Of a DNA stretch of 64,000 bases, positions 3,488 through 9,178 are shown piece after piece. Position 1 is the first letter of the stretch. Every line of letters starts with the position of its first letter. The DNA lies in the NCBI RefSeq assembly GCF_051062815.1, contig NZ_JBPFDU010000074.1:13828-77827 (forward strand), written 5' to 3'. The notes beneath the pieces are model-generated. The model did no database searches and had not been told where the DNA came from. It saw only the letters and a list, made by a program, of their open reading frames with translations. The translations under genes were made by a program, and so were the position numbers. The DNA is from Methylocystis sp. GTDB lineage: Bacteria; Pseudomonadota; Alphaproteobacteria; Rhizobiales; Beijerinckiaceae.

Positions 3488-4570
3488 ATGTCCCACAACA
3501 GTTTCGGCCATCTTTTCCGCGTCACCACCTTCGGCGAGAGCCATGGGCCGGCGCTCGGCGCGATCGTTGACGGATGTCCGCCGAAAATTCCGCTCGAAGC
3601 GCAGGAGATCCAGGGCTTTCTGGACAAGCGCAAGCCCGGACAGTCGCGCTTCACCACGCAGCGGCGGGAGGCCGATGAGGTGAAGATTCTTTCGGGCGTT
3701 TTTGCCGACCGCGACGGCCGAGAGGTGACGACCGGCGCGCCGATCGCGCTCATGATCGAAAATACCGACCAGCGCTCCAAGGATTATGGAGAGATCGCCG
3801 ACAAATACCGGCCCGGCCATGCCGATTACGTCTACGACGCAAAATATGGCGTCCGGGATTATCGCGGCGGCGGGCGCTCCTCGGCGCGGGAAACCGCGGC
3901 GCGAGTCGCCGCCGGGGCTGTCGCGCGCAAGGTCATCGCCGGCGTGACGATTCGCGGCGCGCTGGTGCAGATTGGCCCGCATAAAATTGATCGCGCGAAT
4001 TTCGATTGGGCGGAGGTCGAGCGCAATCCGCTGTTTTGTCCCGACGCGCGCGCGGCGGAATTATGGGCGGACTATCTTGATAATGTGCGCAAGGACGGCT
4101 CCTCCATCGGCGCGGTGATCGAGATTGTCGCCGAGGGCGTTCCGGTCGGCTGGGGCGCGCCGATTTACGGCAAGCTCGACGGCGATCTCGCCGCGGCGAT
4201 GATGTCGATCAATGCGGTGAAGGGCGTCGAGATCGGCGCCGGCTTCGCCGCGGCCGAGCTGACCGGCGAAGACAACGCCGATGAGATGCGCGCCGGACCA
4301 AACGGACCGGAGTTTTTGTCCAACAACGCTGGCGGCGTGCTCGGCGGCATTTCGACTGGCCAGCCCATCGTCGTGCGCTTTGCAGTGAAGCCGACGTCGT
4401 CGATCCTGACGCCGCGCCGCACGATCGATCGCTTCGGCAAAGAGACCGAGATCGTCACCAAGGGCCGTCACGATCCCTGCGTCGGCATTCGCGCCGTTCC
4501 GGTGGGCGAAGCGATGATGGCCTGCGTGCTCGCCGATCATTTCCTGCGCCATCGCGGGCAGGTGGGGTGA
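3488..4570 (+). CDS. aroC: Chorismate synthase
   Basis: [33 protein letters not shown] motifs. Confidence 0.98.
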
Positions 4571-4603
4571 CGGCCGCGTCGTCGCGAGTTGTCGCGAGTC
4601 GAC

Positions 4604-7474
<2,871 letters not shown>

Positions 7475-7773
7475 AACGCGTCACCCGATACAACTATGGT
7501 CGCGCCTGCGACTCGGCGAGTCTGCTCGGCGGAACATCGTGTTCAACCCGGAAGGCTGATCGAAGGTTGCGCGGTCGAGCACAGCTACGGCAAAGCTGGA
7601 GACGATGAAGACTCTTTTCATGTCTCTTATCGCCCGACACATTGCTCCTGATTACGATCAAAGCGAGTGAAGAGCGATTGGAACCAAGCGTGAAGCGGCG
7701 TCGCGTATTCGCTTTGCCTTGCATCAAAAATCGACGCGTCGCTTCGTCGCACAGCGGTTTTTCGTCACCTCGC

Positions 7774-7803
7774 TTGACCGCACGCAAGATTGAAACCTAA
7801 GTT
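7774..7803 (+). promoter_or_regulatory. Putative sigma70-type promoter for the DUF2946-like leader / pmoC unit
   Basis: TTGACC (7774-7779), 18-nt spacer, TAAGTT (7798-7803); fits a GTG start at 7830 preceded by GAGAGG. Confidence 0.45.
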
Positions 7804-7829
7804 CGGTGCTTGGAACCCGAGAGGCGGCG

Positions 7830-8213
7830 GTGGATCCAGTCTTCCAGCGGACAAGTCAGCGCGCGCGCATTTTTGCGGCGCTCGTCGCCTTCCTTATGCT
7901 CGTGCAGACCACGACTGCGGACGCAGGCGCCGTTGCGCTGGGAGAAGGCGTCGCTTTCGGAACAGTCTGCGCGCCGCAGGATGCGGTGAACGGCGAGCTG
8001 CCGCTTTTCCCGAATGAACGCCATCGCCATGGATTCTGTTGCGTTCTTCACAATGGCGCGTTGGACGCGCCTCCTTCCAAGCCAGTTGTTTCGATCGCTC
8101 TGATTTTTCCAGCTGAGGCTCATGCGTCTCCGCTGGAGACGTCCAGTCACGCGCCGCGCATCGAGCCAAAGCGCGCGCCACAATCGCCACGAGCTCCTCC
8201 CCGACAGGGCTGA
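7830..8213 (+). CDS. DUF2946/CruR-like leader protein with Cys/His motifs and C-terminal RAPP motif
   Basis: Hydrophobic N-terminal segment IFAALVAFLMLVQ, GTVC, HRHGFCCVLH, Pro/Ser-rich linker, ending QSPRAPPRQG-stop. This is the DUF2946 architecture as I recall it. ORF track start is 7806; GTG 7830 has the better SD. Confidence 0.7.
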   Translation: MDPVFQRTSQRARIFAALVAFLMLVQTTTADAGAVALGEGVAFGTVCAPQDAVNGELPLFPNERHRHGFCCVLHNGALDAPPSKPVVSIALIFPAEAHASPLETSSHAPRIEPKRAPQSPRAPPRQG

Positions 8214-8404
8214 AGTTTTTCTCGCGCTGAGATTCAACGCAGCCGCCATCATTACGATGGTGATGCGGCGAGAGCGCGTTCGCGAAAAATCTTTCAAACG
8301 GATCCTGCTGCCACCGCTGCGAGAGCAGACGCGGGGCCGCGCGCGCATCAAACCATTCGAAGGGGCGTTCATGCCCCACATAACCAGTATTTTGGAGATG
8401 ACTT

Positions 8405-9178
8405 ATGAGCATGACAAAAGCAGAGGCCCATGCCGCCGCCCGAAGCGCCGAACGAATTGTCGACACCAGACCCGTTCTTATCGGCGTTGCGGTCTTGATG
8501 TTCTTCGTGGCCTGCCTGCGCCTCTACGAACAACTCTTCGCCTGGAGCTTCGGTCTCGATTCCTTCTCGCCCGAGTTTCAGCTCTACTGGATGGGTCTGT
8601 TGCAGTTCGCGATTATGGCGTCGAGCTTTGCCGCGATCGCCCTTGTCGGCTTTCTGTGGCGCACGCGCGATCGCGATCTGGCGAATTTGGGAGCCTCAGC
8701 GGAAACGCGACGGCTCGTTTATCTCGTCCAGTGGCTGCTCGTTTTCTCGCTCGCCCTGTTTTGGGGCTTAAGCTTCTTTTCGGAGCAGACGGCTGTCTGG
8801 CACATGACCGCCGTGCGCGACACGGATTTCACGCCGAGCAATATCATCACCTTTTATATTGCATATCCGCTCTTTGCGATCATCGGGCTCGGCGCGTTCT
8901 TCTATGCGAAGACGCGTCTGCCGACTTTCGCGAAGGGATATTCTCTCGCCTTCGTGGTTCTTGTCGTTGGCGTCTTCATGACGATCCCGAATGTGGGATT
9001 CAATGAATGGGGTCACACGTTCTGGGCGATGGACGAAGGCTTTGCAGGTCCGCTGCACTGGGGCTTCGTCTTTTTCGGCTGGATGTCGCTGGCGACTTTC
9101 GGCGTCGTGCTGCTGATCCTTGGCCGTCTTCGCGAACTCCTCGGCGCGGATGCGCTAGAGCAGCTCTATCGACGTTAA
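8405..9178 (+). CDS. pmoC: Stand-alone particulate methane monooxygenase subunit C paralog (AmoC/PmoC family)
   Basis: LDSFSPEF, WHxTxVRDTDFTPS, PNVGFNEWGHTFW, PLHWGFVFFGW; GGAG SD at about 8394; no pmoA/pmoB adjacent. Confidence 0.95.
   Translation: MSMTKAEAHAAARSAERIVDTRPVLIGVAVLMFFVACLRLYEQLFAWSFGLDSFSPEFQLYWMGLLQFAIMASSFAAIALVGFLWRTRDRDLANLGASAETRRLVYLVQWLLVFSLALFWGLSFFSEQTAVWHMTAVRDTDFTPSNIITFYIAYPLFAIIGLGAFFYAKTRLPTFAKGYSLAFVVLVVGVFMTIPNVGFNEWGHTFWAMDEGFAGPLHWGFVFFGWMSLATFGVVLLILGRLRELLGADALEQLYRR

What the first reader, a model, noticed from the sequence alone, without database searches (positions are those of the whole stretch)
7774..9178. Candidate copper-sensing ribosome-stalling leader (DUF2946/CruR-like, RAPP) controlling an orphan pmoC
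Seen: a sigma70-like promoter and an approximately 127-aa ORF with an N-terminal hydrophobic segment, VC (Cys 7968), HRHGFCCVLH (Cys 8037/8040, His 8049) and C-terminal RAPP (8190-8201) three codons before the stop. A 191-nt spacer and a co-oriented stand-alone pmoC follow. Established: in Bordetella the DUF2946 protein CruR, with Cys motifs and a RAPP motif, is an upstream ORF that regulates a downstream copper-import gene post-transcriptionally in response to copper; RAPP is a ribosome-arrest motif (ApdA/ApdP type). Such leaders are, to my knowledge, typically linked to transporters and Cu chaperones. Inference: here the module is coupled directly to a pMMO subunit gene, so this PmoC would be made under copper limitation and shut off by copper. 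That would be a translational copper switch for methane oxidation that I have not seen described. The usual CxxC appears as CC-x-x-H.
Basis: partly seen in the sequence, partly recalled or inferred. Interest (0 to 1): 0.9.

Follow-up and report, generated by a model that had tools for sequence, protein, structure and literature searches.

The report
Copper-type stalling leader before variant pmoC
A small gene ending in the ribosome-stalling motif RAPP, related to known copper-sensing leader peptides, always sits in front of a distinct methane monooxygenase subunit C that lacks two ligands of one copper site, which suggests an untested copper-dependent control of this enzyme subunit in Methylocystis.

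Summary
GTG 7830-8213 encodes a 127-aa protein with a signal-like N-terminus, Cys47, an H-x-H-x-x-CC-x-x-H cluster and RAPP three codons before the stop. A 191-nt spacer and an orphan pmoC (8405-9178) follow.

The ORF is a divergent DUF2946 member. Its own score is below Pfam's cut-off, but 9 of 13 relatives match, the best at 3e-7. QSPRAPP is invariant among the 13 aligned relatives while its codons change synonymously.

This pmoC belongs to a monophyletic clade (support 100/96) in which two of the three CuC-site ligands are replaced (Asp129Thr, His146Asn). All 27 loci of that clade examined carry the leader 145-391 nt upstream. None of 44 other pmoC upstream regions does.

Paralogous leaders in the same genome precede TonB receptors, MbnP/MbnH and ExbB.

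The most likely reading is a CruR-type metal-sensing arrest leader that gates this PmoC isoform. The direction of the copper response is not established, because the family also contains CutF, which has the opposite polarity. CxxC is replaced by CC-x-x-H. A pairing between the arrest codons and the pmoC ribosome-binding site fits five relatives but not this window. No RNA data could be obtained. The two searches made found no report of this pairing.

The parts
7719..7752 (+). Conserved upstream box: TTGCATCAA, the palindrome CGACGCGTCG and a repeated GTCGC. Possible regulator-binding site just upstream of the -35 hexamer.
   Evidence: Conserved in 17 species in the upstream alignment. Function not tested.
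7774..7802 (+). Promoter-like TTGACC - 17 nt - CTAAGT
   Evidence: GCTTGACC is invariant and GAAACCTAA nearly invariant in 17 species. The consensus scan did not call it because the -10 is weak.
7819..7824 (+). Shine-Dalgarno GAGAGG of the leader ORF
   Evidence: Invariant in 17 species together with the GTG start 5 nt downstream.
7830..8213 (+). Leader ORF, 127 aa, divergent DUF2946 (CruR/CutF family). It has a basic and hydrophobic N-terminus, Cys47, a His/Cys cluster and C-terminal RAPP plus 3 residues.
   Evidence: PF11162: 19.7 bits, E = 0.0015, covering 5-117 of 117 positions. 9 of 13 relatives match, best 3e-7. Alignment A1.
7968..7970 (+). Invariant Cys47
   Evidence: Invariant in A1. 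It corresponds to the 'semiconserved' extra Cys of the family logo (PMC9426467).
8022..8051 (+). Putative metal-binding cluster H65-R-H67-G-F-C70-C71-V-L-H74, replacing CxxC
   Evidence: C70 and C71 invariant, H74 at least 90% conserved. C70 lies 50 residues before the Arg of RAPP, the same as the first Cys of CxxC in three paralogues.
8141..8210 (+). Most C-rich, G-poor stretch of the transcript (C/G 1.6-1.8). Candidate Rho-loading region that a ribosome stalled at RAPP would cover.
   Evidence: Composition profile. Analogy with the rut region mapped inside cruR (PMC9426467). Inference only.
8181..8201 (+). Codons for the invariant Q-S-P-R-A-P-P. Expected arrest has Pro123 (8196-8198) in the P site and Pro124 (8199-8201) in the A site.
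   Evidence: Invariant peptide despite 62 synonymous against 23 non-synonymous codon differences in the last 17 codons across 16 orthologues, with none of the non-synonymous ones inside QSPRAPP. Arrest geometry taken from PMC10951233.
8214..8404 (+). 191-nt spacer with conserved elements: a T-run at 8216-8220 just after the stop, internal hairpins and the block GCGCGCATCAAACC
   Evidence: Alignments and RNAalifold. No + strand sigma-70-like site was found in it.
8362..8377 (+). Conserved hairpin GGGGC-N6-GCCCC, 17 nt upstream of the pmoC SD
   Evidence: Kept in 14 sequences, with one compensatory change. Role unknown.
8394..8397 (+). Shine-Dalgarno GGAG of pmoC
   Evidence: TGGAGA is invariant in the alignment.
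8405..9178 (+). Orphan pmoC of the 'T/N' clade: Thr129 (8789-8791) and Asn146 (8840-8842) replace the Asp and His ligands of the CuC site. His133 and the CuD motifs NEWGH and PLHWG are kept.
   Evidence: PF04896 E = 9e-91. Alignment to PDB 3RFR chain C. The same substitutions occur in all 18 orthologues and in 22 further database relatives. Monophyletic, support 100/96.

Best explanation
The two genes form one conserved regulatory module.

Inferred chain of events:
1. A conserved promoter (7774-7802) drives a transcript whose first cistron is a 127-codon DUF2946-family leader.
2. [quoted passage not shown] This is inferred from ApdA/ApdP structures and CruR genetics.
3. At that moment the invariant Cys/His cluster, 46-50 residues behind the arrest point, has just left the exit tunnel and can bind metal, most likely Cu(I).
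4. The length of the arrest decides whether the downstream orphan pmoC is expressed.

The favoured version follows CruR. A stalled ribosome covers the C-rich 3' end of the leader and keeps Rho off the RNA, so RNA polymerase crosses the 191-nt spacer and pmoC is made. Copper binding releases the arrest, the ribosome terminates and leaves, and Rho stops transcription before pmoC.

The cargo is a distinct PmoC isoform lacking two of the three CuC-site ligands. On this reading it would be made when copper is scarce.

What is shown and what is inferred:
- Shown here: the anatomy, the family relationship, peptide-level conservation, and the strict, exclusive co-occurrence with the T/N PmoC clade.
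- Inferred: the arrest, metal sensing, Rho involvement and the polarity. Given that regulation exists, I put about 0.6-0.65 on the polarity 'off with copper'.

The confidence given (0.65) is for a metal-responsive arrest leader gating this pmoC, whatever its polarity.
For: Family: full-length match to PF11162.

CruR hallmarks:
- RAPP three residues before the end.
- Long intergenic region: 191 nt here against 162 nt in B. pertussis.
- First position in the unit.
- First Cys 50 residues before the Arg, as in three paralogues.

Peptide-level selection: QSPRAPP is invariant among 13 aligned relatives, while 6-9 of the last 17 codons differ synonymously in the more distant orthologues.

Coupling:
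- 18 of 19 genome loci with this leader have pmoC about 145-250 nt downstream.
- 8 of 8 deeper-branching T/N PmoC loci also carry a CC-x-x-H / RAPP leader; one carries RGPP.
- The T/N clade is monophyletic, 100/96.
- No such ORF lies upstream of 4 other pmoC copies in this genome or 40 in 16 other genomes; the same scan found 18 of 18 in the positive control.

Copper context:
- Paralogous RAPP leaders in this genome precede TonB receptors, MbnP plus an MbnH-like CCP_MauG protein, and ExbB.
- The same leader subtype precedes PepSY_TM in L019.
- PCuAC or PepSY_TM genes adjoin the module in L082, L077 and L083.

Compatibility with Rho: a rho gene is present, and the C/G maximum lies at 8141-8210.

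The arrest motif is RAPP as in CruR, not the EF-P-dependent GPPP of CutF.
Against:
- The window's own ORF scores below Pfam's gathering cut-off, 19.7 against 23.7 bits.
- The canonical CxxC is absent.
- The C-rich stretch is also what Pro, Ala and Arg codons give by themselves, so it is not independent evidence for a rut site.
- The whole 3' leader plus spacer folds no better than shuffles, z = -0.8.
- DUF2946 includes CutF with the opposite copper response, so polarity is an argument by analogy.
- A separate pmoC promoter in the spacer cannot be excluded from sequence.
Confidence: 0.65

Rival explanations
1. Same leader, opposite polarity (CutF-like). Copper binding to the nascent or exported leader prolongs the stall. 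This opens RNA structure or blocks termination, so this PmoC is made when copper is available.
For: CutF is a DUF2946 member in which Cu induces stalling and switches on the downstream gene. The leader has a Sec-type N-terminus, which CutF requires. pMMO expression is generally raised by copper (own knowledge). In five relatives (L011, L012, L014, L015, L077) the codons just 5' of RAPP are strongly complementary to the pmoC SD, at or below the 5th percentile against other windows and synonymous recodings. That is a CutF/SecM-like layout.
Against: The arrest motif is RAPP plus 3 residues, as in CruR, not CutF's GPPP. The spacer is 191 nt, whereas stem-loop melting by a stalled ribosome is expected with short spacers. 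In the window and its nine closest relatives, the pairing of arrest codons with the SD is no better than chance, percentiles 0.39-0.81. All paralogues, and the nearest relative that is not linked to pmoC, head uptake-type genes rather than detoxification genes. The cargo lacks CuC-site ligands.
Confidence: 0.2
2. The ORF encodes a genuine exported copper-binding accessory protein, a chaperone or maturation factor for this PmoC. It is co-expressed with pmoC, and the RAPP tail has no regulatory role.
For: It has a signal-like N-terminus, an invariant Cys/His cluster and strict co-occurrence with one PmoC clade.
Against: The strongest conservation is in the last 17 residues and in the position of RAPP 3-4 residues before the stop in 25 of the 27 leaders. 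That is what an arrest peptide needs and a periplasmic chaperone does not. Characterised family members act in cis and are not detected as stable proteins. The middle of the protein is Pro/Ala-rich and variable.
Confidence: 0.07
3. It is a secretion- or insertion-monitoring arrest peptide of the SecM/ApdA/ApdP type. The arrest is released by Sec pulling force rather than by metal, which tunes synthesis of a polytopic membrane protein.
For: RAPP arrest peptides with signal sequences upstream of membrane-biogenesis genes are known. PmoC is a polytopic membrane protein.
Against: The ORF matches DUF2946 and carries the family's Cys/His cluster at the family's spacing. Its paralogues head metal-uptake genes. 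pmoC is not a component of the localisation machinery.
Confidence: 0.05
4. The two genes are neighbours only. pmoC is transcribed from its own promoter, and the leader is a relic of a former uptake operon.
For: No direct evidence of co-transcription. The spacer is long and contains conserved blocks of unknown role.
Against: The pairing holds in 27 of 27 loci across a clade whose PmoC proteins have diverged to about 57% identity, in varied flanking contexts, with the leader under peptide-level selection. No + strand sigma-70-like site was found in the spacer.
Confidence: 0.05

Closest known systems
CruR (Bp2923) of Bordetella pertussis, leader of cruR-crtA(bfrG)-bp2921 (PMC9426467; PMC12914433)
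   Same: It is a DUF2946 protein with an export-type N-terminus and a semiconserved upstream Cys. [quoted passage not shown] It occupies the first position of the unit and is followed by a long intergenic region (162 nt against 191 nt here). The C-rich 3' end of the ORF is a candidate rut site.
   Different: The target is a subunit gene of a copper enzyme (pmoC), not a TonB-dependent copper importer or PepSY_TM protein. CxxC is replaced by vicinal CC plus His (C-C-x-x-H). The window's own sequence scores below Pfam's gathering cut-off. Nothing has been tested experimentally.
CutF of Rhodobacter capsulatus, leader of cutFOG (PMC9973294; 10.1101/2025.02.05.636593)
   Same: It belongs to the same Pfam family, with a Sec signal, a Cys motif and a C-terminal proline stall site. 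It controls the next gene in cis. In five relatives of this locus the stall-site codons pair with the next gene's SD, as CutF's stem-loop does.
   Different: CutF stalls at GPPP (EF-P-dependent), has CxxxC and a short spacer with a local stem-loop, and switches a detoxification gene on with copper. Here the motif is RAPP and the spacer is 191 nt. SD pairing is not supported in this window.
ApdA/ApdP and SecM RAPP/RAGP arrest peptides (PMC7897499; PMC10951233)
   Same: The arrest motif is identical (RAPP near the C-terminus), and the structural mechanism at the peptidyl-transferase centre is known.
   Different: Those peptides monitor protein export and control Sec/YidC components. They have no Cys/His metal cluster and are not DUF2946 members.
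Orphan (monocistronic) pmoC/amoC paralogues of methanotrophs and ammonia oxidisers
   Same: It is a stand-alone pmoC outside pmoCAB, as described for Methylocystis sp. SC2, MJC1 and 'M. sumavensis'.
   Different: This copy belongs to a separate clade with Asp129Thr and His146Asn at the CuC site, and it alone carries the leader. The papers read here call the function of orphan pmoC genes unclear and do not mention an upstream leader.

Membership tests
DUF2946 (PF11162) / CruR-CutF leader family | Significant match to the family profile | tested here: inconclusive
   The window ORF scores 19.3-19.7 bits, E = 0.0015-0.002, below the gathering cut-off of 23.7, but the match covers profile positions 5-117 of 117. 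9 of 13 close relatives match at E <= 0.01, best 3e-7. P0011 and P0013 carry a precomputed PF11162 hit, and the L082 leader carries a weak one.
DUF2946 (PF11162) / CruR-CutF leader family | N-terminal export signal (signal peptide or N-in TM segment) | tested here: inconclusive
   The sequence shows R7, R11, R13, then the hydrophobic stretch IFAALVAFLMLV, then TTTADA-G. No signal-peptide predictor was available.
CruR type | CxxC copper-binding motif | tested here: not met
   The motif is H-R-H-G-F-C-C-V-L-H. CC is invariant and H74 at least 90% conserved. Some relatives have CC-x-x-H-C or C-x-x-x-CC. Other DUF2946 clusters have mixed Cys/His sites.
CruR type | [quoted passage not shown] | tested here: met
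   RAPP is at residues 121-124 of 127. It is invariant in A1. The 27 leaders break down as follows: 26 carry RAPP and one (L075) carries RGPP; 25 leave 3-4 residues before the stop, L018 leaves 8 and L075 leaves 4.
CruR type | Conserved spacing between the metal motif and RAPP (45 intervening residues after the second Cys in Bp2923, within 1-2 residues across the family) | tested here: inconclusive
   C70 and C71 lie 50 and 49 residues, and H74 46 residues, before the Arg. Three paralogous CxxC leaders of this genome have Cys at 50 and 47. The first Cys is in register, but the position of the second Cys is occupied by Leu.
CruR type | First gene of a unit, with a long intergenic region before a copper-related gene | tested here: met
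   The upstream neighbour is on the opposite strand. The spacer is 191 nt here and 145-391 nt in relatives. The cargo is a subunit of the copper enzyme pMMO.
CruR type | Copper-dependent relief of arrest and Rho-dependent termination | not testable with these tools
   Only compatibility can be shown: a rho gene is present and the 3' end of the ORF is C-rich. No RNA or ribosome data were available.
CutF type | PPP stall site and a local stem-loop masking the next gene's SD across a short spacer | tested here: not met
   The motif is RAPP rather than GPPP and the spacer is 191 nt. The pairing of arrest codons with the SD ranks at the 0.54 percentile among other windows and 0.42 among synonymous recodings for the window. 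It is significant only in 5 of 23 loci.
PmoC/AmoC (PF04896) | Full-length match and metal ligands of the CuC and CuD sites | tested here: inconclusive
   Full-length match, E = 9e-91. The CuD motifs NEWGH and PLHWG are kept. The CuC ligands Asp129 and His146 (numbering of 3RFR chain C) are replaced by Thr and Asn, while His133 is kept. The ligand assignment is from my own knowledge of the pMMO structures.

The most novel reading that the evidence does not exclude
Methylocystis has a copper-sensing, ribosome-arrest switch that swaps PmoC isoforms. When copper is scarce, the leader stays stalled and a PmoC without the CuC site is made. It assembles with PmoA and PmoB into a copper-sparing or higher-affinity pMMO. 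This would be a post-transcriptional branch of the methanotroph copper response, and a natural test of which PmoC copper site catalyses methane oxidation.
Probability: 0.25. Interest if true: 0.85.

Novelty: new variant of a known kind. Interest (0 to 1): 0.7.

Why it matters
Three open questions in methanotroph biology meet at this locus:
- what orphan pmoC copies are for; a 2026 preprint still calls this unclear;
- how copper governs methane oxidation in species without soluble MMO;
- which copper site in PmoC is needed for catalysis.

The locus links a leader of a family with two experimentally characterised copper-sensing members directly to a monophyletic PmoC isoform. That isoform has lost two CuC ligands and keeps the CuD ligands. 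The link gives concrete experiments in cultivable strains such as M. parvus, M. rosea and M. hirsuta.

It also extends the known cargo of DUF2946 leaders from transporters, chaperones and oxidases to a subunit of a copper enzyme. And it shows a CC-x-x-H variant of the sensing motif that is conserved across the clade.

Tried and rejected
1. SD sequestration by the arrest codons. RNAalifold proposed a helix between the Q-S-P codons (8183-8189) and the pmoC SD region (8393-8399), with an A-U to G-C switch between two clades. It also appears in the MFE folds of L017, L075 and L077. A duplex scan found the 3' end of the leader as best SD partner in only about 10 of 19 loci, and not in the window. 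A test against other windows and against synonymous recodings gave medians of 0.41 and 0.31. It was significant only for L011, L012, L014, L015 and L077. I reject it as the general mechanism and for this window. It stays open as a lineage-specific layer.

2. Intrinsic terminator at the leader stop. The weak hairpin of the RAPP codons with GGGCTGAAG, followed by TTTTT (8216-8220), is conserved in the two closer clades. The terminator scan did not call it, and it is not visible in distant loci. This is unresolved.

3. Overall structure. The 263-nt stretch of 3' leader plus spacer does not fold better than shuffles, z = -0.82.

4. A pmoC promoter in the spacer. No + strand sigma-70-like site was found. 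This is not conclusive.

5. RNA-seq evidence.

6. Link to published proteomics. I looked for the Methylocystis sp. SC2 orthologue (PmoC2Gs, J7QLZ6, low abundance in PMC9600857) among the database relatives. It was not in the clusters read, so no expression data could be tied to this clade.

7. Literature. No paper holds DUF2946 together with pmoC. There was nothing relevant for pmoC with 'upstream open reading frame'. The two DUF2946 context surveys do not mention AmoC or pmoC in the text or in the supplements that are held.
Full report
**The observation**

A GTG at 7830, preceded by GAGAGG at 7819-7824, opens a 127-codon frame that ends at TGA 8211-8213. The ORF listing also lists an earlier GTG at 7806. 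However, the SD and the GTG at 7830 are invariant in 17 species, and all homologues begin at the corresponding Met-Asp-Pro.

The product has these features:
- a basic then hydrophobic N-terminus (R7, R11, R13, IFAALVAFLMLV, then TTTADA-G);
- Cys47 at 7968-7970;
- the cluster H65-R-H-G-F-C70-C71-V-L-H74 at 8022-8051;
- a Pro/Ala-rich variable segment;
- the tail R-I-E-P-K-R-A-P-Q-S-P-R-A-P-P-R-Q-G, with RAPP at 8190-8201, three codons before the stop.

After 191 nt (8214-8404), a GGAG at 8394-8397 and an ATG at 8405 open a 257-codon pmoC, PF04896 E = 9e-91. Opposite-strand genes flank the pair on both sides and no pmoA or pmoB is near.

It fails the consensus scan because its -10 hexamer is weak. 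GCTTGACC and GAAACCTAA are nevertheless conserved across 17 species. So is an upstream box at 7719-7752 with the palindrome CGACGCGTCG.

**What the small ORF is**

Against Pfam it matches only DUF2946 (PF11162), end to end (positions 5-117 of 117). The score of 19.3-19.7 bits lies below the gathering cut-off of 23.7. The database search returned thirteen homologues. In A1, the window ORF aligned with twelve of them, nine of the thirteen members match PF11162 at E <= 0.01, the best at 3e-7. It is therefore a divergent subfamily of DUF2946.

In the alignment, C47, C70, C71 and Q-S-P-R-A-P-P are invariant and H74 nearly so. The conservation acts on the peptide. Across 16 orthologues, the last 17 codons show 62 synonymous and 23 non-synonymous codon differences. 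None of the non-synonymous ones falls in QSPRAPP. In the more distant clade, 6-9 of the 17 codons differ silently.

DUF2946 has two studied prototypes:
- **CruR of Bordetella pertussis.** It has CxxC, 45 intervening residues, and RAPP three residues before the end, followed by a 162-nt intergenic region. Copper sensed by the nascent chain relieves the RAPP arrest, and Rho then terminates before the TonB-dependent copper importer gene (PMC9426467).
- **CutF of Rhodobacter capsulatus.** It has CxxxC and an EF-P-dependent GPPP tail. Periplasmic copper prolongs the stall, which melts a stem-loop over the cutO ribosome-binding site (PMC9973294; 10.1101/2025.02.05.636593).

The window's ORF has the CruR tail and the long spacer. 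Its first Cys lies 50 residues before the Arg of RAPP, exactly as in three CxxC-bearing paralogues of the same genome, which have Cys at 50 and 47. The second Cys of CxxC is missing, however. The site reads C-C-x-x-H. Some relatives have C-C-x-x-H-C or C-x-x-x-C-C.

**The link to pmoC**

A pattern search of species-representative genomes found 19 loci with this leader, all in Methylocystis or unnamed relatives. Eighteen have pmoC downstream, after a spacer of 145-205 nt in seventeen and about 200-250 nt in L018. The nineteenth (L019) has the same leader subtype (HGLCCVLH ... APQSPRAPPAA), followed about 680 nt further on by a PepSY_TM gene. PepSY_TM is the kind of gene that follows CruR in Bordetella.

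The downstream PmoC is not an ordinary copy. Aligned to the Methylocystis sp. M structure (3RFR chain C), it has Thr for Asp129 and Asn for His146. It keeps His133 and the NEWGH and PLHWG motifs. By my knowledge of the pMMO structures, Asp129/His133/His146 are the CuC (variable-metal) site, and the Asn and two His in the retained motifs are the CuD site.

All 18 orthologues share the two substitutions, and so do 22 further database relatives down to about 57% identity. The other copies in this genome and three canonical database sequences have Asp and His. In a maximum-likelihood tree, the 41 'T/N' sequences form one clade with 100/96 support.

I then fetched eight loci from deep branches of that clade. 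All eight carry an upstream ORF with HG[LA]CC[IV][LV]H. Seven end in RAPP plus 3-4 residues and one in RGPP. The ORF lies 183-391 nt before pmoC.

Conversely, no such ORF lies upstream of the four other pmoC-like copies of this genome, or of 40 other pmoC copies in 16 genomes of four genera. The same scan found it in 18 of 18 positive controls.

The count is therefore 27 of 27 for the T/N clade against 0 of 44 for the rest. The pairing dates from the origin of the clade and has been kept while the flanking genes changed.

**Copper context**

The genome carries about nine further RAPP-tailed DUF2946 ORFs. They precede three or four TonB-dependent receptors, an MbnP gene followed by an MbnH-like CCP_MauG gene, and ExbB. 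In relatives, the pmoC module itself adjoins a PCuAC-type chaperone gene (L082) or PepSY_TM genes (L077, L083).

**Mechanism**

What the data allow is a cis-acting arrest leader whose stalled or released state decides pmoC expression. How it does so is inferred.

For a CruR-like Rho mechanism:
- the RAPP tail;
- the long spacer;
- a rho gene in the genome;
- the C/G maximum (1.6-1.8) at 8141-8210, a stretch whose 3' part a ribosome stalled at RAPP would cover.

The C-richness is also an automatic result of Pro, Ala and Arg codons, so it counts only as compatibility.

I tested the alternative that the arrest codons mask the pmoC ribosome-binding site. RNAalifold proposed such a helix, with one A-U to G-C switch between clades. 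It also appears in the minimum-energy folds of three distant loci. A test on 23 loci against other windows and against synonymous recodings shows it is strong in only five. It is at chance level in the window and its nine closest relatives. It is therefore not the general mechanism.

Several spacer elements are conserved but unexplained:
- a T-run right after the stop;
- a GGGGC-N6-GCCCC hairpin 17 nt before the SD;
- the block GCGCGCATCAAACC.

**Polarity**

Four indirect arguments favour the CruR direction:
- the motif is RAPP, not GPPP;
- the spacer is long;
- every paralogue, and the closest relative not linked to pmoC, heads uptake-type genes;
- the cargo has lost CuC ligands, which fits a low-copper isoform.

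I put this at about 0.6-0.65, given that regulation exists.

**Novelty**

No paper in the library mentions DUF2946 together with pmoC. The two surveys of DUF2946 gene neighbourhoods list transporters, efflux systems, chaperones, MbnPH and oxidases, but no AmoC or PmoC. Recent Methylocystis papers call the function of orphan pmoC genes unclear.

The device is a member of a known family. It carries a variant sensing motif and a cargo class not described for that family. I therefore rate it a new variant of a known kind.

**Limits**

There are no transcript, ribosome or protein data. I could not tie published proteomics of orphan PmoC in strain SC2 to this clade. The taxonomic range was sampled, not surveyed.

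Noticed in passing
window 8405-9178 (Thr129 at 8789-8791, Asn146 at 8840-8842): This PmoC belongs to a monophyletic clade of 41 sampled sequences (support 100/96). Asp129 and His146 of the CuC site are replaced by Thr and Asn, while His133 and the CuD motifs are kept. Two members (P0067, P0103) also have Asn for His133.
   Followed up: yes
window 7719-7752: A conserved box upstream of the -35 hexamer holds TTGCATCAA, the perfect palindrome CGACGCGTCG and a repeated GTCGC. It is kept in 17 species. It may be a transcription-factor site, which would add a transcriptional layer to the control.
   Followed up: partly
own genome G000: C70:127034-131479, C70:35947-36465, C75:29959-30321, C78:88591-88998, C93:22589-23008, C93:53730-54646: There are about nine more RAPP-tailed DUF2946 leaders in this genome. 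They include three in tandem on C70 and a divergent pair on C93. They precede TonB receptors, MbnP followed by an MbnH-like gene, and ExbB. The one on C78 has the closest motif (VCCVAHC) and precedes a 149-aa protein with no Pfam match.
   Followed up: partly
L011, L012, L014, L015 (about 4350-4370 and 4550-4580), L077 (about 2075-2100 and 2480-2500): In these five relatives the Ser-Pro codons just before RAPP read GTCTCCA and are perfectly complementary to the pmoC SD TGGAGAC. The pairing ranks in the top 0-5% against synonymous recodings. The window's clade uses TCG for Ser and lacks this pairing.
   Followed up: yes
L075:1851-2243 (Methylocystis bryophila-type locus): This leader ends in P-R-G-P-P-S-L-E-I (RGPP rather than RAPP) and has a second, internal ARAPP nine residues upstream.
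   Followed up: no
L082:916-3680; L077:2501-5819; L083:1-2277: In some relatives the leader-pmoC pair lies on the same strand as a PCuAC-type chaperone gene (PF04314) or a PepSY_TM gene. This suggests a larger copper-related unit.
   Followed up: partly
own genome G000: C4:55589-56272 and C49:11053-11590: C4 holds a divergent pmoC-like gene (42% identity) preceded by a pmoB-like gene, which is the gene order of a pxmABC operon. C49 holds a pmoC fragment that starts mid-protein and is fused into a 432-codon frame. The pmoC copies on C58 and C9 also have no pmoA/pmoB after them in this 100-contig assembly.
   Followed up: no
window 8362-8377: The hairpin GGGGC-N6-GCCCC, 17 nt upstream of the pmoC SD, is conserved in 14 sequences. 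No U-run follows it and its role is unknown.
   Followed up: partly
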